The notes under the pieces are model-generated. The model saw only the letters and a list, made by a program, of their open reading frames with translations, did no database searches and was not told the DNA's origin. From NCBI GenBank assembly GCA_033648345.1, contig GCA_033648345.1_4121.1: 64,000 nucleotides of DNA. One strand, 5' to 3'. The stretch is from a phage. Shown piece by piece: positions 5,318 to 26,722 of the stretch. The position numbers and the translations under genes are program-made. The first letter of the stretch is position 1. Every line of letters starts with the position of its first letter.

Positions 5318-5329
5318 TAAGGTGATGAT

Positions 5330-6927: not shown

Positions 6928-6939
6928 AACAACACCTCC

Positions 6940-9776: not shown

Positions 9777-9818
9777 GTTTGTCTCCAAAATAAATCGGGT
9801 ATATCTTTATTTACCTTG

Positions 9819-9846
9819 TTGACAAACGCAAAGAATGTGATATAAT
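9819..9846 (+). promoter_or_regulatory. Sigma70-type promoter for the ClpA-like gene
   Basis: TTGACA (9819-9824), 16-nt spacer ending TGa, TATAAT (9841-9846). Confidence 0.6.
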
Positions 9847-9884
9847 GTTTATTAATTAGAGTGACTACTCATTTAGGAGAATAC

Positions 9885-12173
9885 ATGAATCTTACCCAAT
9901 TATTCAAAAAAAGCGACGAACTGGCAACTTCTCTGGGTCATACCTTCTTGACTATTGACCATCTAAGTGCTACAGTACTGACAATCGATAGCATCAAAGC
10001 AGTATTTGAAGATATGAACATCGATGCAGACAACCTACACGGTCGTTTGATTGCATATCTGAAGAATACAACATTCCCACATGCACCTAAAAGTGCTGAT
10101 GGTGATGAAGCGAACCGCACATCACTTCTCGTGAACCGTGTAGTTCAGGAACTTTCTAAGAAATCAGTAATTGAGCAACTTAAACGTGATGATTTCTCAA
10201 TTGATGCTTATTTTGTACTGTTTGAGTGTTTGTCCTTCCCAAATACTGCACTAGAAGCAGCATTGCGTGAAGAGGGTATCACTTGTACTGAAGCAGCACG
10301 AACTCTACAGAAGCACGTAGAAGCAATCGACAACGGAATCAACCTTCAAAGCATTAGTGATGAGCCAACTGGGGAGAAAAAAGTGGCACAACAACAACCA
10401 TCGTCCAAACAAAAAGGTTTAGAAGATTACACCACTAACCTAACCGCACTTGCAAAAGAAGGTAAACTTGACCCAATGATTGGTCGCCAGAAAGAGCTTT
10501 CTGCACTGATTGAAACTCTGGCCCGTAAGACTAAGAAGAATGCTATCCTGACTGGTGAAGCTGGTGTTGGTAAAACTCAAATCATTGATGGTCTAGCACA
10601 GGCAATCGCTGATGGTGAAGTACCAGAGCATCTTAAAGATGTTGAAATTCTGTCTCTGAACGTAGGTGCACTGACTGCTGGTACTAAGTACCGTGGTGAG
10701 TTCGAAGAACGTATCGATAACCTACTAAAAGAACTGAAGAAACGTGAAAACACTATTGTGTTCATCGATGAAATCCATATTATGGTTGGTGCTGGTTCAG
10801 CAAGCAACGGTTCTATGGATATGAGCAACATGCTCAAACCTGCACTATCTCGTGGTGAGATTCGTGTAATCGGTGCAACAACTTACGATGAATATCGTAA
10901 AAACATCGAAAAAGATAGTGCACTAACTCGCCGTTTCATGAAAATTGATGTAGTTGAGCCAACAATTGATGAAACCCGTGCGATTGTGAATGGTTTGAAA
11001 TCTACTTATGAAACTTTCCATAACGTAGAGTTCAGTACTGAAGCAATGGATGCAGTTATTACACTAAGTGATAAGTTCCTGAAGAACAAACACTTCCCTG
11101 ACAAAGCAATCGACCTAATGGATGCGGCAGCAGCGAAAGTACGTTCTCGTGAAACTGATGATAACATCATCACTGTTGCACTGATTCAAGAAGTTGTTGC
11201 AGGTATCGCAAACCTAGATATTAATGTGGTTGCTTGCACTGAAAGTGAACGTATGCGTAATCTACCAGATGCACTCCGTTCTCGTGTATACGGTCAAGAA
11301 GAAGCAGTACAGAAACTGGTTGATAACGTGATGGTAGCTCGTGCTGGTCTGCGTGATAAATCAAGTGTTCAAGGTGCATTCATGTTTGTTGGTCCATCTG
11401 GTACTGGTAAAACTGAAATTACCAAAGCACTGGCTGATGCAACTGGTTCTGAACTGATTCGTTTCGATATGTCCGAGTTTTCACAGGAACATACTGTTGC
11501 TAAACTGATTGGTTCACCTCCAGGCTATGTTGGTCACGATTCTGGTAACGGTCTGCTACTCGACAAGATTGAGCAGTTCCCGAATGCAGTACTGTTGCTT
11601 GATGAAATCGAAAAAGCTGATCGTAAAGTACTACTAACCTTCCTACAGGTTCTGGACGAAGGACGTTTGACTGGTTCACAAGGTAAAACTGTTTACTTCA
11701 ATAACGTAACTGTTATTATGACGACTAACCTTGGTGCAGCAGATTCAACCAAGCGTAGTATTGGGATGAGCGGTAGTGATACAGCACAAGATAAAGCTAT
11801 TAAAGCATTCTTGCCACCTGAATTCATCAACCGTATCGATAGTATTGTGACATTCAAAGACCTAAGCAGCGAAGCGATTGACAGCATCATTGATAAGTTC
11901 ATGGGTAGTCTGAATGAACAAATCAAAGACCGCAAAGTTAAAGTTTCCCTGACTAAAGCGGCACGTGAGTGGTTGGCAACAAATGGTGTTAAAGTTGGGA
12001 TGGGTGCACGTCCAATGAAACGCACTATTGAGCAAAACATCCGTGTCCCACTAGCTAAAGAGATGTTGTGTGGTTCTCTGGTTAATGGTGGTAACGTAAC
12101 GTTTGATGTGATTGATGGTAAATTGGCTATCAAACCTAAACGAACTAAAGCAGTAGAAAAAGTTATTGCGTAA
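9885..12173 (+). CDS. clpA: ClpA-type ATP-dependent Clp protease ATP-binding subunit (N-domain plus two AAA+ modules)
   Basis: Near-colinear with E. coli ClpA from memory: two Walker A motifs (GEAGVGKTQ, GPSGTGKTE), GARPMKR sensor, candidate ClpP-docking tripeptide IGM; track start GTG 9861 replaced by ATG 9885 with AGGAGA RBS. Confidence 0.85.
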   Translation: MNLTQLFKKSDELATSLGHTFLTIDHLSATVLTIDSIKAVFEDMNIDADNLHGRLIAYLKNTTFPHAPKSADGDEANRTSLLVNRVVQELSKKSVIEQLKRDDFSIDAYFVLFECLSFPNTALEAALREEGITCTEAARTLQKHVEAIDNGINLQSISDEPTGEKKVAQQQPSSKQKGLEDYTTNLTALAKEGKLDPMIGRQKELSALIETLARKTKKNAILTGEAGVGKTQIIDGLAQAIADGEVPEHLKDVEILSLNVGALTAGTKYRGEFEERIDNLLKELKKRENTIVFIDEIHIMVGAGSASNGSMDMSNMLKPALSRGEIRVIGATTYDEYRKNIEKDSALTRRFMKIDVVEPTIDETRAIVNGLKSTYETFHNVEFSTEAMDAVITLSDKFLKNKHFPDKAIDLMDAAAAKVRSRETDDNIITVALIQEVVAGIANLDINVVACTESERMRNLPDALRSRVYGQEEAVQKLVDNVMVARAGLRDKSSVQGAFMFVGPSGTGKTEITKALADATGSELIRFDMSEFSQEHTVAKLIGSPPGYVGHDSGNGLLLDKIEQFPNAVLLLDEIEKADRKVLLTFLQVLDEGRLTGSQGKTVYFNNVTVIMTTNLGAADSTKRSIGMSGSDTAQDKAIKAFLPPEFINRIDSIVTFKDLSSEAIDSIIDKFMGSLNEQIKDRKVKVSLTKAAREWLATNGVKVGMGARPMKRTIEQNIRVPLAKEMLCGSLVNGGNVTFDVIDGKLAIKPKRTKAVEKVIA

Positions 12174-12206
12174 AAAAGAAAAGGAGAGCAAATGCTCTCC
12201 TTTTTG
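12174..12206. terminator. Bidirectional intrinsic terminator
   Basis: Hairpin GGAGAGC-AAAT-GCTCTCC (12183-12200) flanked by A-run and T-run; near-identical hairpin recurs at 57509-57526. Confidence 0.65.
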
Positions 12207-15200
12207 TTATTTAACTTCTAATAGATTTTTAATGTCATTACCACTTATTTGCAAACTATCGGAGTAAACAGATAGTTCGATTGGATAACTGTTAACACTA
12301 TAACGTTTTAGTAAATTAACTTTACCTAAGTTCAAGCCATTAAATGAATATGTCACATTCTCTTTAAAGTCGTGTTCTGCACTATACATTACCCCACGGA
12401 GTAAGTTATTTGCAAAACGTACTTCAACTTTTTCAAAACCAAGAGAAATAATATCATTCATACTTGCACCAGCACCAGATAGAACATTATTAGTAACACT
12501 ATATGGACTAACTGAATCTGGTTGTGAAACATAAGTAGTATTTTCTTCACTGATAGCAGTAATGTTAGTTACTGTTCCACCAACTACACCAATATATGTA
12601 TCACTAACTAGTGGATATGCATATTCCCATACCCCTTCAGTATTCAGTACTGGTTGAATAATACCAACATCATACTCGAACACGTTAATTTCCACACTAT
12701 CAGTCATTTTGGTTCTCACTAACTCACTAAGAACACCTGCACCAGTAATTGGTAAGTTATATCCGTTATCAATGGTAACACCATCAACTTCAAATATCTC
12801 GTTAGACACTACCCAAACATCAACGTCATCTGGTGTAATTCCATCATTATAAGAACCACCGTATAGTGTTGTGTCGTAGAATACTTCATAGTTCATTGCA
12901 TCGATAGCATAGTTTCTATTTGTTTCATACAACTTAACACCATCAACCAAGAATTCTGGATCAGCAAAGGTTCTAATACGAACAATGTTCAATGCTAGAG
13001 GTATTGCTGGTTCATTCTGTTGTTGTTTAGTGATGTTATCATAACGAAGTACAACTCCAGTACTATCTAGTAGTTCTACAGTTCCGTTCGCAGTGTTTCT
13101 TACTGTGTACAAGGTTGGTGTGGTGTCAGTTTTGATTTTTGATACACTCAAGATGGTTTCCCATGCATTGTTTTGGTATCTCACATAATCTTCACCATCA
13201 GTTGTGAATATCATAACCTTATCACCATCAGATAGGGTATTGTCAATTACTTCAGCTTCTGTATCACTAACAATTGATTTAATTTTATAGAAGTATTTTT
13301 CATCATACTTACTGTATGATTTACTAATATCATTTTCAATCTTAGCGTAAGAAGGAATACTAACAATTGCTTCTGTTGTTTTATAAGGGTTGATAATAAC
13401 CATACCTTCAGTTTTATATCTACTATTGTCTCTCAATTGAACTAGTGAAACACTATTGAATCCATAACCATCAACTGTGAAGCGAATCTGACCAATCTTT
13501 CTTCCTGATGGGTTAATATCAGAAATGTCGATTATGTACGGATCTACTTCGTCACCTTCAACTTCCCATTTTAACTCGGAAGTTTGTGATTCAAGTGCTA
13601 GGTTATCAAATGCATTCATATCATCGTAGTACTTAGCATCGGTGATGCTATCTAGGATGTGCTGATAATCACTGTACATTGGGTTATTTCTATCAAGAGG
13701 TAAGTCATCAAGATTTATTTCTGCCAATTGAACTAGTTGACCGTCAGTTATGAATTTGTCTTCCATGAAATCATCAATGCTTTGGTCATCTGGGATACTC
13801 TCGTATACACCATTAACATTAACATAAACATATTTTCGTGGCATCATAGTAAATGCATGAATATCAATAGGCATTCTACTTAGTATTTCTTCAGCCTTTT
13901 CATAATGGTCGGTAGCATCTTTGTCATACAAACCACGCATACCGGACAATACATGAATTGCGTCATTGTAGAATCGTTGATTTCCATCTTCATCTACATG
14001 GCGATATGAATAAACACCATATTCAACTTCAAGTATAATTCTAACTTCATCATCAGTTGCAGTAGTATTGTTTTCTTTAATTAAAGAAACATACTTTTTA
14101 TACAACTCACTACTAACTTCAAAGTAACCAAAGTTATAATCAGTACTGGATGCATAACCAAACGGTAGTCTGGTGCTTGGATTATCATCATAGGTTAACC
14201 CACTAAATCCACATCCAACTTCATCATGAATTACTTCATCATCTGCACCTGTGTACAATTTCAAACGGTTAGAGAGTGTGTTATACTGAACGTAATGATT
14301 TACGTCATTAAACATTTCATTTTGTGTTGATTCTTTATATACACGATTCAACGTTTCTGTGAATTCTGCGGTTGCTACCAAATCATCTGCATGGTCTGCA
14401 TACCATTGGTTAACACCGTAAGCAATCCCTAGAGTTACGTTCAATTCTGGGTAATACAATTGCATCTGATAAGCAACCAATAGGTCGAAATCTTCATCAC
14501 TGTATTCTGGGAATGTATATTTGTAACGTTGTAATTCAAAATTACTAACAACATCTTGTGCATTAGATTGATATTTCTTATTCACTTCTTCCAATACATC
14601 AACACTTGCCAAATTATCATTTGGTTTACATTGAGTGTTGTCGTAGTGCATGATAACATCAATTTCTTGGAAACGGCGATTAGGTGTTACGAAATCACTT
14701 GGCAATTCACCAACTTGCTCCCAACGTTGAGTTACCTCATTGAATTGAGCATATTCATAATCCCAAATGTCTTTTTCCGTTTTAACCCAAGTCCCATCTG
14801 CAAATATATAGCCATTAGGATCTAAATCATTACACAAACCTTTAATTAAATCATCATCTGAAGTTTTCTGTTCAATCTGGGAACGAATCTTAGTTCTATA
14901 TGGTTTAACTTCTTCAAAGTACTCAACGATTTGATTAATCAAGTTGTCGTTGGAATAGTTCTGTACTAATGATTGTTCTAAACCTACAATATAAATGTAA
15001 GATGTTTTGAATACCCAATCAACAACGCTTTGTTCTACGTGAACATACTTAACCATATCAAACACAATTTCACTCTGATGTAAGTCGAATGAGTTCTTCA
15101 ATAAAGCTAGTGCTTTACGAACGTTAATCTCACGATTACTCAACGAACCATTAGCATCACGAACTGTATAGTCAGCGTATAACATATCATTCAATTCAAC

Positions 15201-18200
15201 TGTACTATTTTCACGACCAATTGCTTTCCAGTAAACTGAATCACGTGATTGTGCTTTAATGTACAATGTCCAGATGCCATCAACATCTGTAATTCTGATA
15301 ATGTCACCAACTTGATAGTTCTTAGTGTTTGCATCTTCTAGGCTGGATTCTTGTGTATATGCAGTATTTTTATCGTAACCAATATCATACCAATCTGCTA
15401 GTGACCAGTACTGGGTCATGTCCAATGAAGTTCCTAGTGCTTCAACATAGTCTGATTGTTTAATCATTTTCTGTTGACCTTCACCACGGTTTTCCAATGT
15501 AATGGTAACCACACTACCAGCACTTGATGGACTATTCATTAGATGAATATAACCATTAGCATCAATATGCACAAAATATACAGAGCTAGTTGATAGTGGG
15601 TTAGGTAATACACCACTAGTACTTACTAGTACTGCGTCATTTTCTTTGAACTTGTCACTTTCAGGTGCAATGACTAATTCACTATTGTAAGTTAGTACAC
15701 GATATGATACTTCATTCGGGTTAACTTCAGTAGTTTTAACATTAAACACTTCGTCCATTAGAACAGTGTTAGTTGTTATATTCTGTGAGCGATAATAGTT
15801 ATTTGCACTTTCTACAAAGTTTCTACGAGCTTCAATTACATCTTGGAACCAAGTCTTATTAGAACCTAAACCGTTTGGTACTAAAGGATATAGTAAATCA
15901 ATAACAGTTCCTGATTCAGTAGTTTCTTGACCAATCATAGAATTCCACATAGAAGTCCAGATTGATGGATTGAAGTTATAGCTATCACCTTCTTTACATA
16001 ATTGATACTGGTCATGTTTAATAACTTCAGTATTATCCATGTAATAAGAAACAGTTAAAATACTTGTGTCATCGTTGACTTCAAATTGCATATTACTTAG
16101 AATGAACGAGCTTTCATTGATTGGTGCAAACCAAGGAATGTTAAGCTGTGCTGGTTCTTTAATAATACGAGCAATATCAGTACAAGATTTAGTTCTGGAA
16201 TGCAATGGTGGTACATAGATTGTATCACGAACCCAGAAATAGTATTTTGTAACATAAGTATCAGTTGTGCTATCATATTCTAAGAACGTACTATAATTAT
16301 CTTCCAATGCGGTTCCGCTTGGTAGGTACATAGTGTTGTTTTTATTTTTGTTAGCAACGTCTTTACAGTATTTGTCCCAGTTATATGGTTCAACTGGCGA
16401 ACATACCCATTCAAGAACATCAACAGTACTGTGCGGTAGCAATCTGCCCCAGTTATAACGTTTATATTCATTTGTTGCATCAACATCCACATTACCATCA
16501 GCATCATAGATTGCACGAGTGTAATCTAAGTAGAAAGCAGTGCTGGTGTTCCACCAAACCTGACCAACTTTATCAGCACCCCATGCTTGAATCAATTCAC
16601 CATTGCTGTTGTATTGTGCTGGGTCAACTGGAGATGTGTAGGTAACGTTCTGCATCGCTGCACCAGGAATAACACCGTTGATTGGGTCAAACACGTTTAG
16701 GTACAACGCAGTAATGTTAGTACGCTCATCATATGTGGTTGGGCGGTCAAACAAAGTACTTTGTGGAGCTTTAAAACTATATTTTCTGTCAATGTATTCC
16801 TGACGCATCTCTTCAGTACTGAATCGTGAAACATAACGATACAAGCGTGGGCGAGTATCAGGATCAGTGAAGTCAATAGTGATTGAAGTGTCAAACGGAA
16901 CTACCATAACTCTAGGGTCATTACCCGCAGTATAATATTGACTTTCTATAGTCAATGTATCTGGCATAAAGTTAGTTTCATCAACAAAGTAATAATAATC
17001 ACCATCATTTAGTGGGATATCATCACTTAGAGTTACTTTACAGAATTGTTCTGCATATACATCGGTATTTTCAATTGGAACGATAGAGAGCATCTCAACT
17101 TCAGTGTCTATTAGTTCGAAAATATTCCACAAATCATTACCATCTTTAAACATCCATACAGAATCTGGGATTTCACCACTGTTATTCATATAATTGATAC
17201 GATCATTATATGCAGTACTGAAATCTTTAGTAACGTATGAAATTTCATCTAGTGTCACAGGACCAATGTCTGGAAGTTGGATATTCTCACTTCTTCCACT
17301 ACGCATTGGGAATGAAAACTTACCATTTGGACGAGTAATCCAGCGTGAGTCAACCCCTTGTTCACCGTAATAAACAATACCATTACCAGTACCATTTGAT
17401 GTAGCATTAACATCAAACGAAACCATCTGTGGTTGTTGTTTAAATTGGTCATTGATTAGTTTAAATTGTAGATTTTTCTTACCATTGATATTACCATAAG
17501 TACCAATCTTAAATGCCCATTCCTGAAGTGCTTTATATTCATCAGTGTCGTAAGATTTAGAAACGCGTAGTACTTTTTCCATTACTTGGTTAGTACCTTT
17601 GTCATGAATGAATCCTTTATAGAAATCAACACGACTAACATCACTACTAATCATACGTTGTAGATAATCACGAGTTTGATAGCCAATCAAGTGATTTGAT
17701 AACTCTTGAAGCTGAACATCACTCACAGGAGTTTCACTATTATAATATAATTCAAAATCAGTTACTAATTTTTCAAATGATGGTAAAGTTCCTGCTTCTA
17801 GTATAATGAAACCAGGTGCTTGTAGGCGACCAGTCCATGACCCAGTAATGTAACCATACATTTTAATCAATTCTTGAATAGCACCATAAGTTGGTTGGTA
17901 AATGTAATCACCAAAGATAGTTTTATCATCAAAAACAACTGCGTGTTCATATGAACTTAGGCTCAAACGAATCAACGCCATACGTTTTTGTGATTCGGAT
18001 GTAGTTCTCACTGTGAATACGTTACCGATACGCGAAGTTTCGATTTCATATTGACGGATACCTTGGTTTTCATCATCGAGTAGTGACCAAACACCACCAC
18101 TATTCTGTGTAACAGATTGAACTGAACCAAAATCCGCACCAAATTTAGCATTAGCTGCACTTGGAGTACAGGAGATGAACTCACCAGTACTTAAATTATT

Positions 18201-21200
18201 CTGACTCCAAATAACAAAGTCTTTAGCAATAGTTGTCCAGTCTTGTTGAGTACCACTATCATTTACATCTTCAAAAATCCAGCCATGTTCTTTTAGATAT
18301 TCACCATATCCACAAATGAAAGTATAAACTTCTTGGTATGTATTGAATATTTTACCATATTCTAACGTACCTTCAGATTTCCATTCATTGTAATGAACAA
18401 CAGTTCTGTCTTCCAATTTAAGAGTTACTTTTCTTCCATTTTTAACTGGAATTTTATATTTAAATTTAGCACCAACTAAATCATAACCATCAATTTGATA
18501 TGCACTACCATTCCAAGTAATTTTTACTGCACTCATTTGCTCATCGCGAATGTTATTGGAACGAACTAGACCGATAGTTTGGTTTTCTTGTGAAATCAAA
18601 CCGAAAGATTTAGCAGTGAATGTCAATTGGTCTGCTTTAGTAAAGCCACCAATTTTGTGAGCAACATTAACATAAGAAGAACGAACAACGTCACCGTATT
18701 TGGTGGTAATGTTCTTATTCTGATACATCAAATAGTCACTAACAAACATTTGATAACCGATAGTACGGGTATTTTTCTCACCATGTACTAATGTAGTACT
18801 GTCAAAGTTTAGACGCTTACGAGTTTCACCATAAAGGAACTGTGAACCATCAGTATAAACTGGTTTAAGGTTATCATTACGGGTATCCCAGTAATAGTTT
18901 GCAAACTGTGCTGGTTTTGCTTTGTATAGAAGAAGCATTTGGTCATAAGCAAACATCGCAGTGTTCATGTAAGTGAATTCCATGTCACCCATGTCACCAT
19001 AAGCCCACGGTTCTGCACGATGATCTAAATTACCACTAACAAGACCTAAAACTTCAGGTGCAATATATTCAACTTCACAAATATCAATACCAGTACTGGT
19101 TTTCTCGCCAGTCTTAGTGATTTTAAATGGCTGTACACCGAAACGCTTGTATTTGTCATATTGACCACGGCGTTCACCGGACAAAATAGTACCAGTGCTG
19201 CTGTCACCGATAGTACCATCAATATCCCACAATCCACTTGGGACCAAATCACCACTTTCATTCATTACTAGTGCTTCATACACATAAACAACATCACCCT
19301 CACGTTCACCAACTTGAACTGCGGTTGGTTCGTATTCTTGGTTCCACCAAGTAGGACGTTGAGAGAAGCCCATCATTTCCCACGGGTGGGTTGCTGGACG
19401 ATATGTTCCGTATTGATCAGTATAGATTGCACGCCATGAACCACGAGCAGGAATTTCAGTACGTTGACCATCAACAACATAATAACTACCAGTATAGTTC
19501 CAAGTTCTCCAGTTATTTGCATCATAATCATGAGTACTGTTACTAATACTATTGGTTGCTGTGAAGTTAATGTAACCACGTAGTAATAGAGTTTTCTTTT
19601 CTTCTGCACTATAATCAGTACCAGTGAAATATGGAGTTGGGAATAGGTCTTCACTGTTTAGTACTGGTTTATAATCAATATCCTTGAAAGTAAGGTCAAT
19701 ACTATTAAAGATACGATTCTCCAATTCGAAAACAACGTCATCCATTTTATCAACACCATTGATAACACGGTATGCTTTTGAAATAATACCAGTATGACTG
19801 ATATTATACCAGCTAGATTTACTACCAGCAGTTAAGAATGTTGCTTTTTGTGGTGTATAAGCTTGCAAAATACCCAAGAACTGTGGAGTTGGTGGGACAA
19901 ATGCACGAATAAACCCAGCAGTGCTTGCAACGTTGTCATAGTAGAATGGGAATGTACTATCACGTCCCATATTAATAGCTGTTAGAATCGCATCTACGAT
20001 GTTTGATGCACTATTACCAAGAAAAGCACTTGGGTCTTCTTCATACAAACGAAGCATTTGAGTGTTGAACTTGTTAATGAAGCGGAAGTATTCTGCTTGC
20101 ATAAACATGATTGATTCAAACAAATCAATATCTTCATTAGCGGTATGTGCCATTAGTGGTAATATGGACGCTTCGTTTTGAATAATTTTAGTGCCTACAC
20201 CATTATTAACCAAACCAGCAGCCAAACGTTCTTCGTAATTGTTAAAGTCATCAGCAGAACCAGATGTAATATTCTTTTGAATAATATCTTGGAAGTGCAG
20301 GGTGTAATCACCTTGGTTGATGTATTCAATGTTTGAATTATATGGGTTATTTTGTAGGTTAATTGGAACTTCATATGCACCCAACTCTTTATTAGGAGTG
20401 ATAGTGCTACTATAAGTTCTGATTTGTACAACAGAATCTTCATCCAAATCAACAGAACTATCAATTGTAATACTTTGTACTTGATTATTAACTACAGTTT
20501 TGGTGTATTCTTTTATTTCCACACCATCAACAACTAGTTCGATAATATCATCAGAATTATCTAGTACTTTTTGTGCCAATTCAAATGTATGATTGTACTT
20601 AACGCTTTGTACCCCATCACCAACGATAACATGCCAATCAAGATATGTTTCACGTTCTGCTTTGTAATATTGATAAGTTCTGTCAACTTCAATTACATAA
20701 GCATACATTCCTTCAACTGGGTCTTTGAAACTTTCCATGTCATAAACAGTACTGAACACGCGGAACATTACTGTACGTTCAACCTGTGGAGTTTGTTTAA
20801 CATATTGTTTGGAGTATTCAGTACTACGAACCCAATCAGTTTCTAGGTTCATTGTATTACCTTCACCAATTACGTTATAGTAATATAGTCCATCAATTTC
20901 AACTTCCACACCCAAATGCTCGTAAGTATAACGAGTTGATTGTAGGAAATTCTCATAGGTGTAATAATTGTAATCACCTAGTTCAATGTTATAACCATAA
21001 ACGCTATCGGTTGCATAATTATAGTTAATTTTAAAACCAAATAATGAAGAACCAGTAAAAGTACTTGATGGATAGGTAGTAGTGTTGTTTAGTTTAACAC
21101 CATTACGGTCATACAATTGGAATTGTGGAAATACGTTCACAGAAGTTTTAGACTGTGCTTGAATCCAATGAGAACCGTCCCAATACATGGAACTGTTACC

Positions 21201-22178
21201 AAATTCATTACCTTTGATAATAAGAACTACGTCACCATCTTGTGGTTCACCACTCGGACGGCTTTCAGATTCTTCGTCTGGATCTAATGCTAGACCATAC
21301 ACACGTGTTCCATCTTGCATACGTTTAACATATACTTTATAAATTCGGTTGTTTTCACCATTGTTACCAATACTGGTGAAAAGAATACGCATACCATCTT
21401 GTGGAATAATACCATCAATACGTATACCGCTGTTAATATCTTTTTGTACGATATCTTCAGGTTTAATAATATCAGAGAACAAATCAACTGTCCCACGGAA
21501 TTTAGTACCGTAGTTCATTAGTTCGATATTTTTATTGTATTCGATAATTGGTGCACGAGCACGAACAAAACGGGAATCTTGCATTAGTTCTTCAGTTAGG
21601 ATAGTACCATCTTCTAAAGTTTCACCTAATGTGTACCAGAAGTTTTGTAGTGACCAAGTGTTACCATTTTCTGCACCACGTTCCATTACAATATAATCTG
21701 GAGTTGTGATATTATAGCTATTCTTGGAATCCCATAGGTATGAACTGTAGTTGTTCATTTTATTTGGGTTAATTGGTGGGGTCCATGAATAGAACTTACC
21801 ATTAAACAAACGGCTTTCATTTTCGGTTAGTGCACCGTAATGATTCATATAGCCAACTAGATCATCATAAAATTGAATTGAACGAATGCTGGAGTCATCA
21901 TTTCTTGAGACATACGCAGTGGACAACTGATATAGTTGACGTGCGACTGTTGACTCGTGTAAGAAGATGTTCCCTGCTGCTGCCGGAGAACCCATGTCAC
22001 CAATGTAGCCGTCAACTAATTCGTTTTCAGCCGGATTAAACCATTGTTGGATAACATCATCACTGACTTTCTGAATATCTTCTAAGCCTTGCATCCACTC
22101 AGGCAATCTTTTTATGAAAAGCTTCTTCTGTACTGCTTCAGCCATCTGTGTAGGTTGAAACTTAAAATTATTAGTCAT
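12207..22178 (-). CDS. Giant protein (~3323 aa) of unknown function, in the baseplate/tail module
   Basis: Uninterrupted 10 kb ORF; ATG at 22178 has GGAG RBS (track start 22208 has none); no enzyme motif recognised; followed by a gp25-like gene and a spike gene. Confidence 0.7.
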   Translation of the reverse strand: MTNNFKFQPTQMAEAVQKKLFIKRLPEWMQGLEDIQKVSDDVIQQWFNPAENELVDGYIGDMGSPAAAGNIFLHESTVARQLYQLSTAYVSRNDDSSIRSIQFYDDLVGYMNHYGALTENESRLFNGKFYSWTPPINPNKMNNYSSYLWDSKNSYNITTPDYIVMERGAENGNTWSLQNFWYTLGETLEDGTILTEELMQDSRFVRARAPIIEYNKNIELMNYGTKFRGTVDLFSDIIKPEDIVQKDINSGIRIDGIIPQDGMRILFTSIGNNGENNRIYKVYVKRMQDGTRVYGLALDPDEESESRPSGEPQDGDVVLIIKGNEFGNSSMYWDGSHWIQAQSKTSVNVFPQFQLYDRNGVKLNNTTTYPSSTFTGSSLFGFKINYNYATDSVYGYNIELGDYNYYTYENFLQSTRYTYEHLGVEVEIDGLYYYNVIGEGNTMNLETDWVRSTEYSKQYVKQTPQVERTVMFRVFSTVYDMESFKDPVEGMYAYVIEVDRTYQYYKAERETYLDWHVIVGDGVQSVKYNHTFELAQKVLDNSDDIIELVVDGVEIKEYTKTVVNNQVQSITIDSSVDLDEDSVVQIRTYSSTITPNKELGAYEVPINLQNNPYNSNIEYINQGDYTLHFQDIIQKNITSGSADDFNNYEERLAAGLVNNGVGTKIIQNEASILPLMAHTANEDIDLFESIMFMQAEYFRFINKFNTQMLRLYEEDPSAFLGNSASNIVDAILTAINMGRDSTFPFYYDNVASTAGFIRAFVPPTPQFLGILQAYTPQKATFLTAGSKSSWYNISHTGIISKAYRVINGVDKMDDVVFELENRIFNSIDLTFKDIDYKPVLNSEDLFPTPYFTGTDYSAEEKKTLLLRGYINFTATNSISNSTHDYDANNWRTWNYTGSYYVVDGQRTEIPARGSWRAIYTDQYGTYRPATHPWEMMGFSQRPTWWNQEYEPTAVQVGEREGDVVYVYEALVMNESGDLVPSGLWDIDGTIGDSSTGTILSGERRGQYDKYKRFGVQPFKITKTGEKTSTGIDICEVEYIAPEVLGLVSGNLDHRAEPWAYGDMGDMEFTYMNTAMFAYDQMLLLYKAKPAQFANYYWDTRNDNLKPVYTDGSQFLYGETRKRLNFDSTTLVHGEKNTRTIGYQMFVSDYLMYQNKNITTKYGDVVRSSYVNVAHKIGGFTKADQLTFTAKSFGLISQENQTIGLVRSNNIRDEQMSAVKITWNGSAYQIDGYDLVGAKFKYKIPVKNGRKVTLKLEDRTVVHYNEWKSEGTLEYGKIFNTYQEVYTFICGYGEYLKEHGWIFEDVNDSGTQQDWTTIAKDFVIWSQNNLSTGEFISCTPSAANAKFGADFGSVQSVTQNSGGVWSLLDDENQGIRQYEIETSRIGNVFTVRTTSESQKRMALIRLSLSSYEHAVVFDDKTIFGDYIYQPTYGAIQELIKMYGYITGSWTGRLQAPGFIILEAGTLPSFEKLVTDFELYYNSETPVSDVQLQELSNHLIGYQTRDYLQRMISSDVSRVDFYKGFIHDKGTNQVMEKVLRVSKSYDTDEYKALQEWAFKIGTYGNINGKKNLQFKLINDQFKQQPQMVSFDVNATSNGTGNGIVYYGEQGVDSRWITRPNGKFSFPMRSGRSENIQLPDIGPVTLDEISYVTKDFSTAYNDRINYMNNSGEIPDSVWMFKDGNDLWNIFELIDTEVEMLSIVPIENTDVYAEQFCKVTLSDDIPLNDGDYYYFVDETNFMPDTLTIESQYYTAGNDPRVMVVPFDTSITIDFTDPDTRPRLYRYVSRFSTEEMRQEYIDRKYSFKAPQSTLFDRPTTYDERTNITALYLNVFDPINGVIPGAAMQNVTYTSPVDPAQYNSNGELIQAWGADKVGQVWWNTSTAFYLDYTRAIYDADGNVDVDATNEYKRYNWGRLLPHSTVDVLEWVCSPVEPYNWDKYCKDVANKNKNNTMYLPSGTALEDNYSTFLEYDSTTDTYVTKYYFWVRDTIYVPPLHSRTKSCTDIARIIKEPAQLNIPWFAPINESSFILSNMQFEVNDDTSILTVSYYMDNTEVIKHDQYQLCKEGDSYNFNPSIWTSMWNSMIGQETTESGTVIDLLYPLVPNGLGSNKTWFQDVIEARRNFVESANNYYRSQNITTNTVLMDEVFNVKTTEVNPNEVSYRVLTYNSELVIAPESDKFKENDAVLVSTSGVLPNPLSTSSVYFVHIDANGYIHLMNSPSSAGSVVTITLENRGEGQQKMIKQSDYVEALGTSLDMTQYWSLADWYDIGYDKNTAYTQESSLEDANTKNYQVGDIIRITDVDGIWTLYIKAQSRDSVYWKAIGRENSTVELNDMLYADYTVRDANGSLSNREINVRKALALLKNSFDLHQSEIVFDMVKYVHVEQSVVDWVFKTSYIYIVGLEQSLVQNYSNDNLINQIVEYFEEVKPYRTKIRSQIEQKTSDDDLIKGLCNDLDPNGYIFADGTWVKTEKDIWDYEYAQFNEVTQRWEQVGELPSDFVTPNRRFQEIDVIMHYDNTQCKPNDNLASVDVLEEVNKKYQSNAQDVVSNFELQRYKYTFPEYSDEDFDLLVAYQMQLYYPELNVTLGIAYGVNQWYADHADDLVATAEFTETLNRVYKESTQNEMFNDVNHYVQYNTLSNRLKLYTGADDEVIHDEVGCGFSGLTYDDNPSTRLPFGYASSTDYNFGYFEVSSELYKKYVSLIKENNTTATDDEVRIILEVEYGVYSYRHVDEDGNQRFYNDAIHVLSGMRGLYDKDATDHYEKAEEILSRMPIDIHAFTMMPRKYVYVNVNGVYESIPDDQSIDDFMEDKFITDGQLVQLAEINLDDLPLDRNNPMYSDYQHILDSITDAKYYDDMNAFDNLALESQTSELKWEVEGDEVDPYIIDISDINPSGRKIGQIRFTVDGYGFNSVSLVQLRDNSRYKTEGMVIINPYKTTEAIVSIPSYAKIENDISKSYSKYDEKYFYKIKSIVSDTEAEVIDNTLSDGDKVMIFTTDGEDYVRYQNNAWETILSVSKIKTDTTPTLYTVRNTANGTVELLDSTGVVLRYDNITKQQQNEPAIPLALNIVRIRTFADPEFLVDGVKLYETNRNYAIDAMNYEVFYDTTLYGGSYNDGITPDDVDVWVVSNEIFEVDGVTIDNGYNLPITGAGVLSELVRTKMTDSVEINVFEYDVGIIQPVLNTEGVWEYAYPLVSDTYIGVVGGTVTNITAISEENTTYVSQPDSVSPYSVTNNVLSGAGASMNDIISLGFEKVEVRFANNLLRGVMYSAEHDFKENVTYSFNGLNLGKVNLLKRYSVNSYPIELSVYSDSLQISGNDIKNLLEVK

Positions 22179-22226
22179 TTTTGGACTCCATATAATTCGT
22201 TCATTCATTTGATTTATTTATGATAT

Positions 22227-22250
22227 AAAAAAGACGTTCCGAAGAACGCC
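22227..22250 (-). terminator. Intrinsic terminator (minus strand) with UUCG tetraloop
   Basis: Minus-strand RNA GGCGUUC-UUCG-GAACGUC followed by U6. Confidence 0.5.
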
Positions 22251-22258
22251 TTAATGTG

Positions 22259-25200
22259 TTATGAACCAATGTTAATGTTACTCTTAGCCAAGGAATTGAC
22301 TATCTGTACGTTATCAACTGATGCAGTACTTAAGAAAATCTGGTCAGAACGTGAAGGGATTTCAAATAGTGAGCCAAATTTAGAGTTAGGGTTTTGAGCT
22401 ACGATAACAATAGTACTAATATGTCGTCCTAATTGGGAGTGAATGTATGTACACAAGTCAGTGTAATAGAAACTTTCACCAAAATCCCAGTTGTCAACAT
22501 TAAAATACTCGTTAGTTAGTGCTACGACATTTTGACGAATTTCATCATCACTCATTGTACTGTTAGGCAATTTGACGACTTTGAAATCTGCTTTATAATC
22601 TTCAGCAGCACTCGCACCAAATAATGGTAGATATTCTGCACTATGCCAAATAATACTGTCACTGATGACTATTTTTTGTTCAACTTCTTTAAAAATGTCT
22701 TTCAATTCAACAGATGTTGGTGGTTTAGGCATATTACCTTGTGTTCCATTCTTCAACCATACATCAACTTCAGTTTTGTATGAATTGGTTAATACATACA
22801 TGTCAATCAAGTTTGTTCTACTTGGGTCAATGCGATTATCATCTGGTGCATAATGTTTCCAGTGGAAATCAATACCAGTTCTTGCATTCGTTTTTACGGT
22901 ATATTGTGAAGTTACATCTTTATAACCATAATAATCTAACTTTTGGTTAACATCAGCATTAGTACCGATATTAACAATAGCACGATAAAACGCAAGTTCA
23001 GGAGTTGCAGCAGTTGTATCATCAGAATAGGTCAAGTTCTCAATTAATTGGTTTAAACGGTCATTATTATTACCAACAGTTTGTTCTATGAAGTAATATT
23101 TACCATCGTATTTAAAGCCAACCATAAAGCCTGAACCTTTACTATAGATACCACTCAATGTTGTTGAGCGAATAGCATTATTGCGAACAAATTCACTTCT
23201 CTTATACGCATTAGTTTCTGCAAGTGCCTGATCCATTGTATAAGCCCATGAAGAATCAAGAATAGTGAAAGTATCGCTCGGTAATGACAGTACTGATATA
23301 GTGAAATCATCGTTTTCTTGGAAAACCAATATACCACCATATTTAACTGAATCTTCACCAGTCCAATTTGGTACAATTTCTCTGAATTGATTAGGTTCTA
23401 GTGGGATTCCATTACTATCAACGTTTTCAGAGGTGATAACCACACGAGAACCATCAAGATACCCGTTTTCTTGTTGAATTGTGTCATAAATTTGGAAATC
23501 TATGTTACTTGTCAACCCAGCATTACTATTGCTTGTGGTATTTGATGATAAAATTTCAATTTTGTCACTTTGAACACTACCAGTACTAATATCAGTTATC
23601 TTTTTAGAAGAAACGAAGTAAAAACGAACTTTATCACCACCAACGAACACATATTCAACGCCATTCGCATCAAATTCCCAGGTTTCAGCAGTATATTTGA
23701 TGTTAATCATAACAAGAACTTCATTTCCATTATAAGAAATAGTATCTTCATCAGTACTGATTTCTAATGGAATCCAAGAAGTTGTTTCTTTATCATGAAT
23801 AATAACAAAATCTGTCTTTTTATCAAGCATTGCAGCGATTGCTTGCACTTCGACACTATTAAAACGTGTTCTGTATTGTAAAATGTACTCTTGTGCTTGC
23901 ATATTTGATGAAACTGAAGTACTTAGAACGTAATATCCATTATCAAGAACACTAACAATACTAGCCCACACAGTAGTTCCGGCATTTGAAAACTTAATCA
24001 ACGTACCAACTTGATAATTTCCGAATACGTTACCTGTTGCCCCCATAATACGACCATACGTATTAGTTGCGTAATTAGAATTGTATTCAGGTGTCCATTT
24101 TTGTTGAATTTCAATACCAATTGTATTCGGTGGATATGCTTGATAACGTTGGATTACAGCATTCTCACCAATCAATGGCTGAATATTATCAATTACAATA
24201 CTAGCATTTGTTTTGGTAGTTGGTAATTGTAAAGATTTATTAAATTGTGTGTTTTCTTGATACATTGAACCATCATCACTAAACACATCAGTGTTTTGAT
24301 ACTTACCAGTTGGATCATTAATATCAATGAATCGTGACTGTCCACTATATAAACGGTTAATTGCTTTAGATTTAAGAACTGTGTTACCCAAACTCAACGG
24401 AGCAATGTTATAGTCTTCGCCGTTAACAAAACGGTTTTGAGTGTAATACATTTGTGGAGCACGAGCCTTAATTTGTTCAATTGTTTCTGCACTTTGTGCA
24501 CGATCTGATTCATATTGCAATGTGAAACGAATATCCAAAGTACTGGATTCATAGCTTGATTGTGTTTTGGTTCTATAGGTGTATTTTACACTTTTGTTCT
24601 GGATTTCAGACGTTTTAATGTTGTATGTTTCACCATTACTAACACGATACCATACACGATACGTCCCACGAGGAACAACACCACTACGAGAATCAGGATA
24701 CTTAATAGTAATCTGGTCTTTATCACGAGTTGTGACAGCAAAGATTGTTTTTAGTTGACGGTTAACAGTATTGTATGCGATACTTTCCATAGATGGAACT
24801 TTGGTCCATTTAGTACGTACAATACCATCTTCGTTGATTTCCTGAACCCAAACATCAGTTTCGTTGATATTATCTACGTTGATGTCTTGGATACGGTTTT
24901 CTTCACGAATATTATATTGGTAATCTTGGTATGTCAATGTCCCTTGAACAAAATAAACGAAGAAACCAGTATTTGGTGAACTAAATCCGTTACCATCATT
25001 CTGATAAACGATATATTTTTGCTCTTGTGGTTCAGGGTGACGCTCTTCAACACCAACTGCTGTAATATCAGGGTTGACAACTTCAAATGTCATCGATTCA
25101 CCATTAACTGTAGCTGTGAATGGAAGACTTGGTGCTGACATTGGAATTGTATTCATACGATATAGCTGACGAGAAACACCATTGATATCGATACGTTTAA

Positions 25201-25720
25201 CCGGATTACCAAACTGGTTAGTACTGACAAATGAACTGTTCATAACTAGAATGAAGTTCTCATACCAGTTTGTGTCCATTGGGTCATTCCAACGAATGAT
25301 TTTATCCTTAAGTGATTCGTTAAAACTATTACGAACGTCTTGGTTGGTTTTTATTTCTGTTAATTTAGCAACTGCACGACCTGGATATGAACGGCGTGGA
25401 GAGTAAGAAATCATTTTTGCGAGTTTCAGTACTGATGCACGACGAGTAGCAGTATCTAGGAAGTTCTCACGAGTGTTTAAATCCATACGGAATGCTAAGT
25501 TCTGGCCTAGCATAGAAATGGTATCTAGAATAAAGATGAACTGGTCGTTTTCGATCCAGTCGTTGAAAGAATCTGGGTACGTAGCACGTAGATAGTCAAT
25601 CATACTTTGACGGATTGTATCAAAGTCATAAGCTGTTAGATTGATCTTATAAAAGCTTTCATATACTTGAGTCCAATCTTCACCAGCGTATAAATTTGAT
25701 TGCCTTTTTTGTTGTGACAT
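22259..25720 (-). CDS. Large hypothetical protein (1153 aa), possibly a baseplate wedge component by position
   Basis: Long ORF with AAAGGAA RBS; sits between the gp25-like gene and the giant gene. Confidence 0.6.
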   Translation of the reverse strand: MSQQKRQSNLYAGEDWTQVYESFYKINLTAYDFDTIRQSMIDYLRATYPDSFNDWIENDQFIFILDTISMLGQNLAFRMDLNTRENFLDTATRRASVLKLAKMISYSPRRSYPGRAVAKLTEIKTNQDVRNSFNESLKDKIIRWNDPMDTNWYENFILVMNSSFVSTNQFGNPVKRIDINGVSRQLYRMNTIPMSAPSLPFTATVNGESMTFEVVNPDITAVGVEERHPEPQEQKYIVYQNDGNGFSSPNTGFFVYFVQGTLTYQDYQYNIREENRIQDINVDNINETDVWVQEINEDGIVRTKWTKVPSMESIAYNTVNRQLKTIFAVTTRDKDQITIKYPDSRSGVVPRGTYRVWYRVSNGETYNIKTSEIQNKSVKYTYRTKTQSSYESSTLDIRFTLQYESDRAQSAETIEQIKARAPQMYYTQNRFVNGEDYNIAPLSLGNTVLKSKAINRLYSGQSRFIDINDPTGKYQNTDVFSDDGSMYQENTQFNKSLQLPTTKTNASIVIDNIQPLIGENAVIQRYQAYPPNTIGIEIQQKWTPEYNSNYATNTYGRIMGATGNVFGNYQVGTLIKFSNAGTTVWASIVSVLDNGYYVLSTSVSSNMQAQEYILQYRTRFNSVEVQAIAAMLDKKTDFVIIHDKETTSWIPLEISTDEDTISYNGNEVLVMINIKYTAETWEFDANGVEYVFVGGDKVRFYFVSSKKITDISTGSVQSDKIEILSSNTTSNSNAGLTSNIDFQIYDTIQQENGYLDGSRVVITSENVDSNGIPLEPNQFREIVPNWTGEDSVKYGGILVFQENDDFTISVLSLPSDTFTILDSSWAYTMDQALAETNAYKRSEFVRNNAIRSTTLSGIYSKGSGFMVGFKYDGKYYFIEQTVGNNNDRLNQLIENLTYSDDTTAATPELAFYRAIVNIGTNADVNQKLDYYGYKDVTSQYTVKTNARTGIDFHWKHYAPDDNRIDPSRTNLIDMYVLTNSYKTEVDVWLKNGTQGNMPKPPTSVELKDIFKEVEQKIVISDSIIWHSAEYLPLFGASAAEDYKADFKVVKLPNSTMSDDEIRQNVVALTNEYFNVDNWDFGESFYYTDLCTYIHSQLGRHISTIVIVAQNPNSKFGSLFEIPSRSDQIFLSTASVDNVQIVNSLAKSNINIGS

Positions 25721-25822: not shown

Positions 25823-26218
25823 TTACAAAGATGATACAGAATAGGTAGCCATTCTGTTGTTACTTCTTGCATCAAAAACTATAGTTAATTCTTCAAGAGT
25901 ATTGAGAACAACATATTCAAGTACTATATCCATCTGATAACCGTACTCAATTCTTGATATTTGAAGTTTCTTTAAGCTTAAACGTGGGTCCAAGCTAATA
26001 ATTCTACGGGCATCTGCTTCCAAAAGGTTGATTGTATTATAACCATCCAATTCAAATAGCAAATCCCACGCAATGAACCCATAATCAGCATCAAATGCAC
26101 GTTCACCTTTTTTTGTATTGAAATGATTCATTAAATCCTGACGAACCAATTCACTGTCATACAATGTTTCAGTTCTTCCAACTACTGGTGTTGAAAAACC
26201 TTTAAAAACAATTGCCAT
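25823..26218 (-). CDS. Baseplate wedge protein, gp25 / GPW-like
   Basis: 131 aa; KGERAFDADYG...LLFE and EADARRIISLDPRL resemble the T4 gp25 family; adjacent to the spike gene. Confidence 0.55.
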   Translation of the reverse strand: MAIVFKGFSTPVVGRTETLYDSELVRQDLMNHFNTKKGERAFDADYGFIAWDLLFELDGYNTINLLEADARRIISLDPRLSLKKLQISRIEYGYQMDIVLEYVVLNTLEELTIVFDARSNNRMATYSVSSL

Positions 26219-26233
26219 TATGTGTTTCCTTTA

Positions 26234-26722
26234 TTATACGGATTCGACGATGCGAGCCATCTTCTCCGCTCTGGATGTGGTTTGTTTGTACCACGAACTA
26301 TCACGCATTTCTTTACCAGCAGTTTTATAATCACCACGACCGAGAGCAGCCATCGCTTTTTTGAAATTTAAAACTTTTGATTTACCCATTTGGAACACCA
26401 TAAACCACAATACACGCTGAACCTGTACTGGAGCAGTCATTCCAAATTGATCATAGATTGATTTTGCGTCATTGTAAGCGGTCTGAGCATCTTTTATAAG
26501 GAGAGCATCAGCTTCTGCTTCAGTGAGTCCATTTTTGAAACTTTCACCCTTAAGTACAAGGTGACCGTAACCAATGGTATCAAGACCTAGACTGTCTTTA
26601 TATACCCAAAACTTATCATTTTTAAAATAACCAAGTTTTTTCTGATACGCAATAGTACCTTCAAATTCTTTAATTTCTTTAAAAAATTGTTCGTCGGTAT
26701 TTTTGATTTCCCATTTACTCAT
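26234..26722 (-). CDS. T4-type lysozyme (GH24 endolysin)
   Basis: 162 aa; catalytic Glu (KEFEG), Asp (YKDSLG), Thr (DTIGYGHL) and VFQMG as in T4 lysozyme; GAGGAAA RBS. Confidence 0.8.
   Translation of the reverse strand: MSKWEIKNTDEQFFKEIKEFEGTIAYQKKLGYFKNDKFWVYKDSLGLDTIGYGHLVLKGESFKNGLTEAEADALLIKDAQTAYNDAKSIYDQFGMTAPVQVQRVLWFMVFQMGKSKVLNFKKAMAALGRGDYKTAGKEMRDSSWYKQTTSRAEKMARIVESV

What the first reader, a model, noticed from the sequence alone, without database searches (positions are those of the whole stretch)
12207..22178. 3323-aa giant ORF embedded in the baseplate/tail module
A single ~10 kb uninterrupted reading frame with its own terminator and an upstream late-type ATAAATAAAT box. 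No polymerase or enzyme motifs were recognised by eye, and its position next to the 1153-aa protein, gp25-like protein and spike argues for a giant structural or adhesin-like baseplate/fiber protein rather than an N4-type virion RNA polymerase. Proteins of this size are rare in T4-like modules.
Basis: partly seen in the sequence, partly recalled or inferred. Interest (0 to 1): 0.55.

Follow-up and report, generated by a model that had tools for sequence, protein, structure and literature searches.

The report
Giant baseplate protein of jumbo coliphage
The 10-kb reading frame is real and is the already catalogued 380-kDa "virion structural protein" of 121Q/RaK2-type jumbo phages; it most likely builds the outer part of the tail baseplate, and it is not a polymerase or other enzyme.

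Summary
A minus-strand ORF runs from 22178 to 12207 (3323 aa, 380.5 kDa). It has its own Shine-Dalgarno sequence, an upstream ATAAATA late-type box, and a terminator on each side.

The window is an Asteriusvirus-type jumbo coliphage, more than 99% identical to Ecwhy_1, WPEC5 and vB_Ec-M-J. The protein is a full-length member of PHROG 10938, "virion structural protein". Mass spectrometry has found orthologs in virions of phAPEC6 (gp245) and CBB (CBB_236), and the PA5oct record carries an ESI-MS/MS note.

The family is large: 824 clusters at 50% identity, and nearly all members are 3,000-7,300 aa. Gene order is almost fixed. In 68 of 70 metagenomic loci a gp6-like wedge gene lies directly upstream, and a gp25-like gene precedes it in 36 of 36 loci with enough sequence. 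This is the slot held by gp7 in T4, gpI in P2 and gp48 in Mu.

No Pfam, PDB-sequence, profile-profile or fold search found a polymerase, an enzyme, T4 gp7 or a fibre fold. The first ~2,500 aa are conserved across the family. The last ~820 aa evolve quickly.

Best reading: a single-chain baseplate wedge and periphery protein, with a lineage-specific outer module. The gene is already known, but its exact place in the virion has not been shown.

The parts
12207..22178 (-). Coding sequence of the giant protein (3323 aa, 380.5 kDa, pI 4.5). The stop codon is at 12207-12209.
   Evidence: Full-length match to PHROG 10938 (E=0, 5470 bits). 99.0-99.6% nucleotide identity to ten deposited Escherichia jumbo phages.
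22186..22189 (-). GGAG ribosome-binding site, 7 nt upstream of the ATG at 22178.
   Evidence: Read directly. The same start is annotated in GenBank relatives.
22215..22221 (-). ATAAATA box resembling the T4 late promoter TATAAATA, 37 nt upstream of the start codon.
   Evidence: 16 of 20 copies in the window are intergenic and upstream of same-strand genes. A gp55-like late sigma factor is annotated at the position matching 32779-33720.
22231..22252 (-). Intrinsic terminator of the upstream gp6-like gene. It separates that gene's transcription from the giant gene.
   Evidence: 9-bp stem, 4 GC pairs, T-run.
12179..12204 (-). Intrinsic terminator of the giant gene. It is bidirectional and shared with the convergent ClpB-like gene.
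   Evidence: 11-12 bp stem, 5 GC pairs, T-runs on both strands.
14679..22178 (-). Conserved core, aa 1-2500. It is alignable in all family members in blocks at about aa 20-470, 550-950, 1050-1700, 1810-2130 and 2250-2450.
   Evidence: The AlphaFold model of aa 1-1040 has mean pLDDT 79, and aa 130-470 score around 90.
12210..14678 (-). Fast-evolving C-terminal module, aa 2501-3323. The model shows a helical domain followed by beta-rich domains.
   Evidence: Identity drops stepwise at about aa 2500 (for example 72-87% falling to 39-70% in P0004), and distant relatives cannot be aligned there. Model.
21789..22118 (-). aa 21-130. Strongly conserved but modelled with low confidence as a monomer. 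Candidate inter-subunit contact, possibly the N-terminal helix of a wedge core bundle.
   Evidence: The analogy is to the N-terminal three-helix bundle of the phiKZ wedge (PMC13250141). This is inference.
14859..15071 (-). aa 2370-2440 (VDWVFKTSYI...EVKPYRTKIR). Contains two of the three most conserved 10-residue blocks examined in the two modelled stretches (block conservation 0.68 and 0.72), predicted helical with pLDDT below 40. Second candidate inter-subunit contact.
   Evidence: This is inference.
22259..25720 (-). Upstream partner gene: 1153-aa gp6-like baseplate wedge protein.
   Evidence: PHROG 219 E=3.4e-21 over aa 26-125. Collinear weak match to the T4 gp6 N-terminus. A homolog lies directly upstream of the giant gene in 68 of 70 metagenomic loci.
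25823..26218 (-). gp25-like sheath-initiator / wedge protein.
   Evidence: PF04965 E=1.5e-8. Present upstream of the gp6-like gene in 36 of 36 loci with enough sequence.

Best explanation
The ORF encodes a late-expressed, non-enzymatic structural protein of the tail baseplate. It fills the genetic slot that T4 gp7, P2 gpI and Mu gp48 fill in other contractile tails.

Proposed working (inferred, not shown):
- One copy per wedge, so six per virion.
- The copy joins two copies of the 1153-aa gp6-like protein, plus the gp25-like and gp53-like proteins.
- The join uses conserved segments that do not fold confidently on their own (aa 21-130 and/or aa 2370-2440).
- The conserved 2,500-aa core forms the intermediate and outer baseplate. 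T4 builds that layer from gp7, gp8, gp9, gp10 and gp11, and phiKZ builds it from many small proteins.
- The variable 820-aa C-terminal module faces outward. It either docks the lineage-specific branched fibres and tailspikes or forms the six short baseplate fibres seen by electron microscopy.

Shown here or in the literature:
- The gene and its transcription signals.
- Membership of the family.
- Presence of orthologs in virions.
- The invariant synteny.
- The split between a conserved core and a variable C-terminus.
- The absence of enzyme or fibre signatures.

Inferred: location in the baseplate, copy number, binding partners and the role of the C-terminus.
For: Family and virion presence. 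Full-length PHROG 10938 match. Orthologs detected in purified virions: phAPEC6 gp245, 381.9 kDa, 17 peptides, 7.6% coverage; CBB_236, 21 peptides, 7.7%. The PA5oct RefSeq record carries an ESI-MS/MS note on its 3857-aa homolog. The low coverage, compared with 24% for the neighbouring gp6-like gp244, fits a low-copy component.

Synteny. The order spike / gp25 / gp6-like / giant is found in this window, in two metagenomic contigs with homologs at 24-27% identity, in PA5oct and in Atu_ph07. In IMG/VR, 68 of 70 loci have a gp6-like ORF abutting the giant ORF, and 36 of 36 also have the gp25-like gene. In four distant loci, fibre genes follow the giant gene directly or within a few small genes. This is the P2 (V-W-J-I-H) and Mu (45-46-47-48-49) order, from established knowledge.

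Expression. The gene has a late-type promoter box and its own terminators.

Architecture. The 2,500-aa core is conserved across 824 clusters, whereas the C-terminus is variable. Distant members carry CBM_5_12, FG-GAP_2 and Laminin_G_3 inserts, which suggests surface exposure.

Missing T4 parts. The CBB study found only gp5, gp6, gp25 and gp53 among T4 baseplate homologs.

Against: The position of the protein in the virion has never been imaged. Mass spectrometry shows only that it is in the particle.

Two other conserved virion proteins of unknown role sit in the same module (751 aa at 29437-31692 and about 243 aa at 32018-32839). Either could be the true gp7 counterpart.

aa 1041-2139 were not modelled. 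The two proposed contact segments rest only on high conservation combined with low pLDDT.

Reported baseplates of relatives are modest in size (about 35 nm wide), so part of the protein may extend as arms instead of lying in a plate.
Confidence: 0.6

Rival explanations
1. It is a tail fibre or adhesin: a receptor-binding protein that extends from the baseplate, for example the six short baseplate fibres. Under this reading it is not an integral wedge or plate component.
Confidence: 0.2
2. It is a virion-packaged internal or ejected protein. Examples would be an N4-type virion RNA polymerase, an inner-body component, or a protein that forms a trans-envelope conduit.
For: Its size resembles N4 gp50. 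Mass spectrometry shows only that it is in the particle. phAPEC6 and 121Q have an inner body whose proteins are unassigned.
Against: No polymerase or any other enzyme family was found by Pfam, PHROGs, PDB sequence or profile searches, or fold searches. There is no hydrophobic segment (best Kyte-Doolittle 19-residue mean 1.12). The gene is locked to gp25 and the gp6-like gene in 68 of 70 loci, not to head genes. The phage encodes a gp55-type late sigma factor.
Confidence: 0.05
3. It is a tail-length or tail-decoration protein: a tape measure, or the anchor of the tail 'hairs' seen in CBB and phAPEC6.
For: It is very large, lies in a tail gene region, and those phages carry unusual hairs.
Against: A separate tape measure gene is annotated in the close relative vB_Ec-M-J, at the position of the window's 801-aa ORF 39229-41634. 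The RaK2 description mentions no tail hairs, yet RaK2 has the protein at about 70% identity. The model is made of globular beta and alpha domains, not one long helix.
Confidence: 0.03

Closest known systems
Giant 'virion structural protein' of RaK2-like / Asteriusvirus jumbo myophages (PHROG 10938; 121Q gp582, PBECO4, phAPEC6 gp245, RaK2, GAP32, CBB_236, PA5oct gp128/PQE65_gp355)
   Same: Same family end to end (E=0, profile positions 1-3324 of 3324). 99% identical at the DNA level to ten deposited phages and 82% to 121Q and phAPEC6. Same neighbours. Orthologs detected in virions.
   Different: Nothing of substance differs. Unlike most metagenomic relatives, this lineage separates the gene from the gp6-like gene with a terminator and a promoter box, where the others have overlapping ORFs.
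T4 gp7 baseplate wedge protein (Pfam PF21427, PF21428, PF21456)
   Same: Encoded directly after the gp6-type gene. Late and virion-borne. The largest protein of the wedge module. Multi-domain, without enzymatic motifs.
   Different: Three times larger. No sequence, profile or fold similarity detected. The (gp6)2-gp7 core bundle could not be tested.
Minimal gp7-type wedge proteins: P2 gpI, Mu gp48, T6SS TssG, phiKZ gp128
   Same: Same slot in the conserved order spike / gp25 / gp6 / gp7 / fibre. In phiKZ the N-terminal regions of gp128 and of two gp87 copies form the three-helix core bundle (PMC13250141). The giant protein has a conserved helical N-terminus that is not confidently folded on its own.
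phiKZ outer baseplate periphery (gp27, gp26, gp139, gp130, gp157)
   Different: phiKZ uses many copies of five small or medium proteins. Here the proposal is that one 380-kDa chain per wedge does the job. The two are not homologous.
N4 gp50 virion RNA polymerase
   Same: Size class (about 3,300-3,500 aa) and presence in the virion.
   Different: No polymerase signature in any search. Baseplate context instead of the podovirus early-gene logic.

Membership tests
RaK2-like giant virion structural protein (PHROG 10938) | Full-length sequence match to the family profile | tested here: met
   E=0, 5469.8 bits, protein 1-3320 against profile 1-3324 of 3324. 237 homologs, all 2,780-5,638 aa.
RaK2-like giant virion structural protein (PHROG 10938) | Encoded directly downstream of the gp25-like and gp6-like baseplate genes | tested here: met
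   Window. Distant loci. 68 of 70 and 36 of 36 IMG/VR loci.
RaK2-like giant virion structural protein (PHROG 10938) | Physically present in purified virions | not testable with these tools
   Shown for the phAPEC6 and CBB orthologs in the literature, and noted as ESI-MS/MS in the PA5oct record. Not shown for this phage.
T4 gp7 family | gp7 sequence domains (PF21427, PF21428, PF21456) | tested here: not met
   0 Pfam hits at E<=1 for the protein and for 13 diverse relatives. These domains are present in all 120 listed T4 gp7 homologs.
T4 gp7 family | Profile-profile homology to gp7 | tested here: not met
   hhalign probability 0.4% (family against T4 gp7) and 0.2% (family against an 18-sequence gp7 alignment).
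gp7-type wedge proteins in general (gp7, gpI, gp48, TssG) | Gene immediately follows the gp6-type gene | tested here: met
gp7-type wedge proteins in general (gp7, gpI, gp48, TssG) | Forms a three-helix core bundle and trifurcation unit with two gp6-type subunits | not testable with these tools
   Only monomer prediction was available. Candidate segments aa 21-130 and aa 2370-2440 are conserved but have low pLDDT.
gp7-type wedge proteins in general (gp7, gpI, gp48, TssG) | Fold similarity to a solved gp7-type protein | tested here: inconclusive
N4-type virion RNA polymerase | Single-subunit RNA polymerase domain or motifs | tested here: not met
   No Pfam or PHROG polymerase family. No PDB sequence or profile match. 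No polymerase among the fold matches.
Phage tail fibre / tailspike | Trimeric fibre signatures: repeats, collar, beta-helix, Gp34_trimer, Peptidase_S74 chaperone | tested here: not met
Tape measure protein | The sole long helical ruler gene of the tail module | tested here: not met
   A separate tape measure gene is annotated at the position of window 39229-41634. The models are multi-domain alpha/beta.

The most novel reading that the evidence does not exclude
The family is a new architectural solution for contractile-tail baseplates. Under this reading a single 3,000-7,300-aa polypeptide per wedge replaces the whole multi-protein intermediate and peripheral baseplate (T4 gp7+8+9+10+11, or the phiKZ star-lobe network). 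It would be built largely from folds with no solved counterpart, and it would be used by a very large and mostly uncultured clade of jumbo phages.
Probability: 0.4. Interest if true: 0.55.

Novelty: already known. Interest (0 to 1): 0.3.

Why it matters
The gene itself is not new. It is annotated in dozens of GenBank records, and its product has been found in virions since the RaK2, CBB and phAPEC6 studies. In the papers I read it is listed only as a structural or hypothetical protein with no role assigned.

This analysis adds four points:
- The gene is the most constant companion of the gp25 / gp6 wedge genes across a very large clade of jumbo phages (824 clusters at 50% identity, members up to 7,307 aa).
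- It has no detectable relative among solved structures.
- It splits cleanly into a conserved 2,500-aa core and a fast-evolving 820-aa end.
- That split makes it the obvious missing piece for any structural model of how these phages mount their branched fibre and depolymerase arrays, which matters for engineering the host range of therapeutic Klebsiella and E. coli jumbo phages.

For genome annotation, "baseplate wedge/periphery protein (gp7 position)" would be a more informative label than "hypothetical protein".

Tried and rejected
Searches that found nothing:
- Pfam on the protein at E<=1: no hit. Pfam on 13 diverse relatives: only scattered CBM_5_12, Gp18_dom_I and single-member hits.
- PDB sequence search with the protein and with a full-length family profile: nothing better than E=0.6.
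- Foldseek against the PDB with the aa 1-1040 model: no hit at E<=0.001.
- hhalign against T4 gp7, as a single sequence and as an 18-sequence family alignment: no similarity.
- Self-BLAST and hydropathy: no repeats and no membrane segment.
- tRNA and Rfam scans of an unannotated gap elsewhere in the window: nothing.

Searches that failed for technical reasons:
- A homolog search with only the C-terminal 823 aa returned one fragment, because candidate pre-selection saturated. It was uninformative and cost one capped search.
I replaced it with a back-translated motif scan.

Papers that held nothing relevant:
- The phiKp24, fEgEco12 and phage TnSeq papers say nothing about this protein.
- The T4 baseplate structure paper is not in the library. 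My recollection that the gp7 core-bundle helix lies near residues 830-880 is therefore unverified, and no conclusion rests on it.

Hypotheses rejected: N4-type polymerase, tape measure, tail-hair anchor and repetitive adhesin. Reasons are given under the rival explanations.

Full report
OBSERVATION. The window carries a minus-strand open frame from 22208 (first ATG) to the TAA at 12209-12207, and its translation has no internal stop. GGAG sits at 22189-22186, 7 nt upstream. GenBank annotators chose the same start in vB_Ec-M-J and phAPEC6. The methionine is nearly invariant in a 30-sequence family alignment. At 36% GC about 7% of random codons are stops, so a 3,323-codon frame cannot arise by chance (about 1e-104, my calculation).

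Transcription signals. A strong hairpin with a T-run follows the stop at 12204-12179. It is bidirectional and also serves the convergent ClpB-like gene. A second terminator at 22252-22231 closes the upstream 1153-aa gene. Between that terminator and the start lies ATAAATA (22221-22215). The heptamer is not over-represented in the window (20 copies against 27 expected). However, 16 of the 20 copies lie in the 8% of the window that is non-coding, typically 15-60 nt upstream of a start on the same strand. The relative vB_Ec-M-J has a gp55-type late sigma factor annotated at the matching position. The box therefore behaves like a T4-type late promoter element (T4 consensus TATAAATA, from established knowledge).

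WHAT THE SEQUENCE IS. The 10-kb gene is 99.0-99.6% identical at the DNA level to ten deposited Escherichia jumbo phages (Ecwhy_1, WPEC5, Turkey3, vB_Ec-M-J, fEgEco12 and others). It is 82% identical to 121Q, PBECO4 and phAPEC6, which belong to the genus Asteriusvirus. The protein matches PHROG 10938, "virion structural protein", from end to end (E=0). It is 380.5 kDa and acidic (pI 4.5). It has no internal repeat and no hydrophobic segment.

VIRION PRESENCE (literature). The phAPEC6 ortholog gp245 (381.9 kDa) was identified in purified virions with 17 unique peptides and 7.6% coverage. Its neighbour gp244, the 131-kDa "baseplate wedge", reached 24% coverage (PMC7247149). CBB_236 was found with 21 peptides and 7.7% coverage (PMC5259590). 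The PA5oct homolog carries an ESI-MS/MS note in RefSeq.

NO ENZYME, NO POLYMERASE. Pfam gives no hit at E<=1 for the protein. For 13 relatives spanning 25-58% identity it gives only sporadic CBM_5_12, Gp18_dom_I and single-member hits. PDB sequence searches with the protein and with a full-length family profile find nothing.

FAMILY AND ARCHITECTURE. A word-indexed search found 237 homologs, all between 2,780 and 5,638 aa. An exhaustive HMMER search with aa 1-480 found 824 clusters at 50% identity (623 at E<=1e-10). Of the best 150, 104 are at least 3,000 aa, the median is 3,565 aa and the maximum is 7,307 aa. The matched domain is always near the N-terminus.

Cultured carriers are all jumbo myophages. 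They include Asteriusvirus, RaK2 and K64-1, Munch, CBB, GAP32, Serratia BF, fHe-Yen9-04, XaC1, Vibrio 2.275.O, the PA5oct group, Atu_ph07 and RsoM2USA.

Conservation is blockwise over aa 20-2460. Identity then drops in a step at about aa 2500. For one relative it falls from 72-87% to 39-70%, and distant relatives cannot be aligned at all beyond that point. Two segments are highly conserved yet poorly predicted as a monomer: aa 21-130 and aa 2370-2440, the latter containing the VDWVFKTSY...EVKPYRTKIR motif. This pattern is typical of segments that fold only against a partner, but that reading is an inference.

GENOMIC CONTEXT. Upstream on the same strand lie:
- a gp53-like protein (weak PF11246 match; PHROG 7145);
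- a 751-aa virion protein;
- a gp5-type spike with an OB fold, a weak (sub-threshold) M23 peptidase match and a lysozyme domain;
- a free-standing lysozyme;
- a gp25-like protein (PF04965);
- the 1153-aa protein.

The N-terminus of the 1153-aa protein matches the gp6-type PHROG 219 (E=3.4e-21) and is collinear with the T4 gp6 N-terminus.

The order gp25 / gp6-like / giant recurs in two metagenomic contigs whose giants are only 24-27% identical, and in PA5oct and Atu_ph07. The two contigs and PA5oct also show the gp53-like, 750-890-aa and spike genes upstream and fibre genes downstream. In Atu_ph07 the region upstream of the gp25-like gene differs.

To quantify this, I back-translated an invariant motif of my own window (HPWEMxGF...P.WW) and scanned IMG/VR. 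At least 120 loci matched. In 70 of them the 5' end of the giant frame lies inside the locus. In 68 of those 70, a homolog of the 1153-aa protein ends within 136 nt of it, usually overlapping by a few bases. All 36 loci with at least 4.2 kb of upstream sequence also have the gp25-like gene directly before the gp6-like gene. One exception has only 18 nt of upstream sequence. The other, L081, is a shorter member of about 2,457 aa.

Spike / gp25 / gp6 / X / fibre is the canonical order in P2 (V, W, J, I, H) and Mu (45-49), where X is the gp7-type wedge protein (established knowledge). The giant protein occupies that slot.

MECHANISM (best supported, largely inferred). I propose a late structural protein present once per wedge, so six copies per virion. 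It would assemble with two gp6-like subunits and with the gp25- and gp53-like proteins. Its conserved 2,500-aa core would form the intermediate and outer baseplate. Its variable C-terminal 820 aa would be the outward-facing adaptor for the lineage-specific branched fibres and tailspikes, or would form the six short baseplate fibres seen by EM.

Several points fit this proposal. The CBB study found no T4 baseplate homologs beyond gp5, gp6, gp25 and gp53. In phiKZ the wedge is a heterotrimer whose N-terminal regions form a three-helix bundle, and a separate multi-protein periphery carries the fibres (PMC13250141). In this window the giant gene has its own terminator and promoter pair, whereas most relatives have overlapping gp6-like and giant ORFs. 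The separate signals could tune the stoichiometry of the two proteins.

COMPARISON WITH KNOWN FAMILIES. The protein is a member of the RaK2-like giant virion protein family. It is not demonstrably a member of the T4 gp7 family:
- the gp7 Pfam domains are absent;
- profile-profile probability is 0.2-0.4%;
- no gp7-type fold was found.

"Works like gp7 plus the peripheral baseplate" therefore remains a positional and functional analogy. The defining (gp6)2-gp7 core bundle could not be tested with monomer-only prediction.

The rival readings are less well supported:
- Fibre or adhesin: the protein is non-repetitive, has no fibre signatures, and 75% of it is conserved across unrelated hosts.
- N4-type polymerase or internal protein: there is no polymerase signal, and the gene is locked to baseplate genes.
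- Tape measure or tail-hair anchor: a separate tape measure gene exists, and the RaK2 description mentions no tail hairs although RaK2 carries the protein.

CAVEATS. The location in the virion has not been observed. Two other unassigned virion proteins in the module (751 aa and about 243 aa) could be the true gp7 counterpart. aa 1041-2139 were not modelled. The alignments used for prediction held only 22-23 sequences.

VERDICT. The gene and its virion association are already known, so novelty is low. What remains open, and moderately interesting, is the structure and exact role of a very widespread family of giant baseplate-module proteins with no solved relative.

Noticed in passing
window 9861-12173 (+): A ClpB/ClpA-like double AAA+ ATPase (AAA_2, AAA, ClpB_D2-small) converges on the giant gene and shares its bidirectional terminator. 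GC in 10001-12000 is 0.42, against about 0.35 in the surrounding DNA, which hints at foreign origin. It is not next to the giant gene in distant relatives, so it is probably not a dedicated chaperone.
   Followed up: partly
window, 20 sites (e.g. 4164, 25779, 26740, 37439, 45280, 46489, 49328, 49675, 58899): The heptamer ATAAATA is slightly under-represented overall. Yet 16 of 20 copies are intergenic and lie 15-60 nt upstream of same-strand structural genes, so it is a late-promoter-type signal of this phage.
   Followed up: yes
IMG/VR loci L014-L128 compared with window 22179-22258: In 68 metagenomic relatives the gp6-like ORF and the giant ORF abut or overlap (typically -4 to -25 nt), which suggests translational coupling. 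In this window an 80-nt spacer carrying a terminator and a promoter box separates them.
   Followed up: partly
L081 (IMGVR_UViG_3300045988_149940), about 3629-11000: An unusually short family member of about 2,457 aa, roughly the conserved core alone. No gp6-like ORF lies in the 1.2 kb upstream.
   Followed up: partly
proteins P0327 (7307 aa), P0376 (7020 aa), P0307 (6342 aa); P0078, P0091, P0109: Family members reach 7,307 aa. Marine and metagenomic members carry CBM_5_12, FG-GAP_2 and Laminin_G_3 inserts between the conserved blocks, with inserts of up to about 1,200 aa after block 1460-1700.
   Followed up: no
window 26760-29423 (-) and 26234-26722 (-): The gp5-type spike combines an OB fold, a DUF2345 beta-helix, a weak M23 peptidase match and a C-terminal lysozyme. 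A second free-standing T4-type lysozyme gene follows it.
   Followed up: no
window 37409-38244: A 0.84-kb stretch with no annotated gene in the close relative vB_Ec-M-J. There is no tRNA and no Rfam match near a gathering score. Only short ORFs are present, the longest being 81 aa with a TTG start.
   Followed up: partly
GenBank OQ411014.1 (phage EJP2), 148474-151761: The ortholog is annotated 'D-alanyl-D-alanine carboxypeptidase'. Nothing in the Pfam or PDB searches supports this, so it is probably a misannotation.
   Followed up: no
protein P0121 (NCBI WJW27_005741, 461 aa, 'Escherichia coli'): A partial protein filed under E. coli is 71% identical to the C-terminal module. It is most likely jumbo-phage DNA inside a bacterial assembly.
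   Followed up: no
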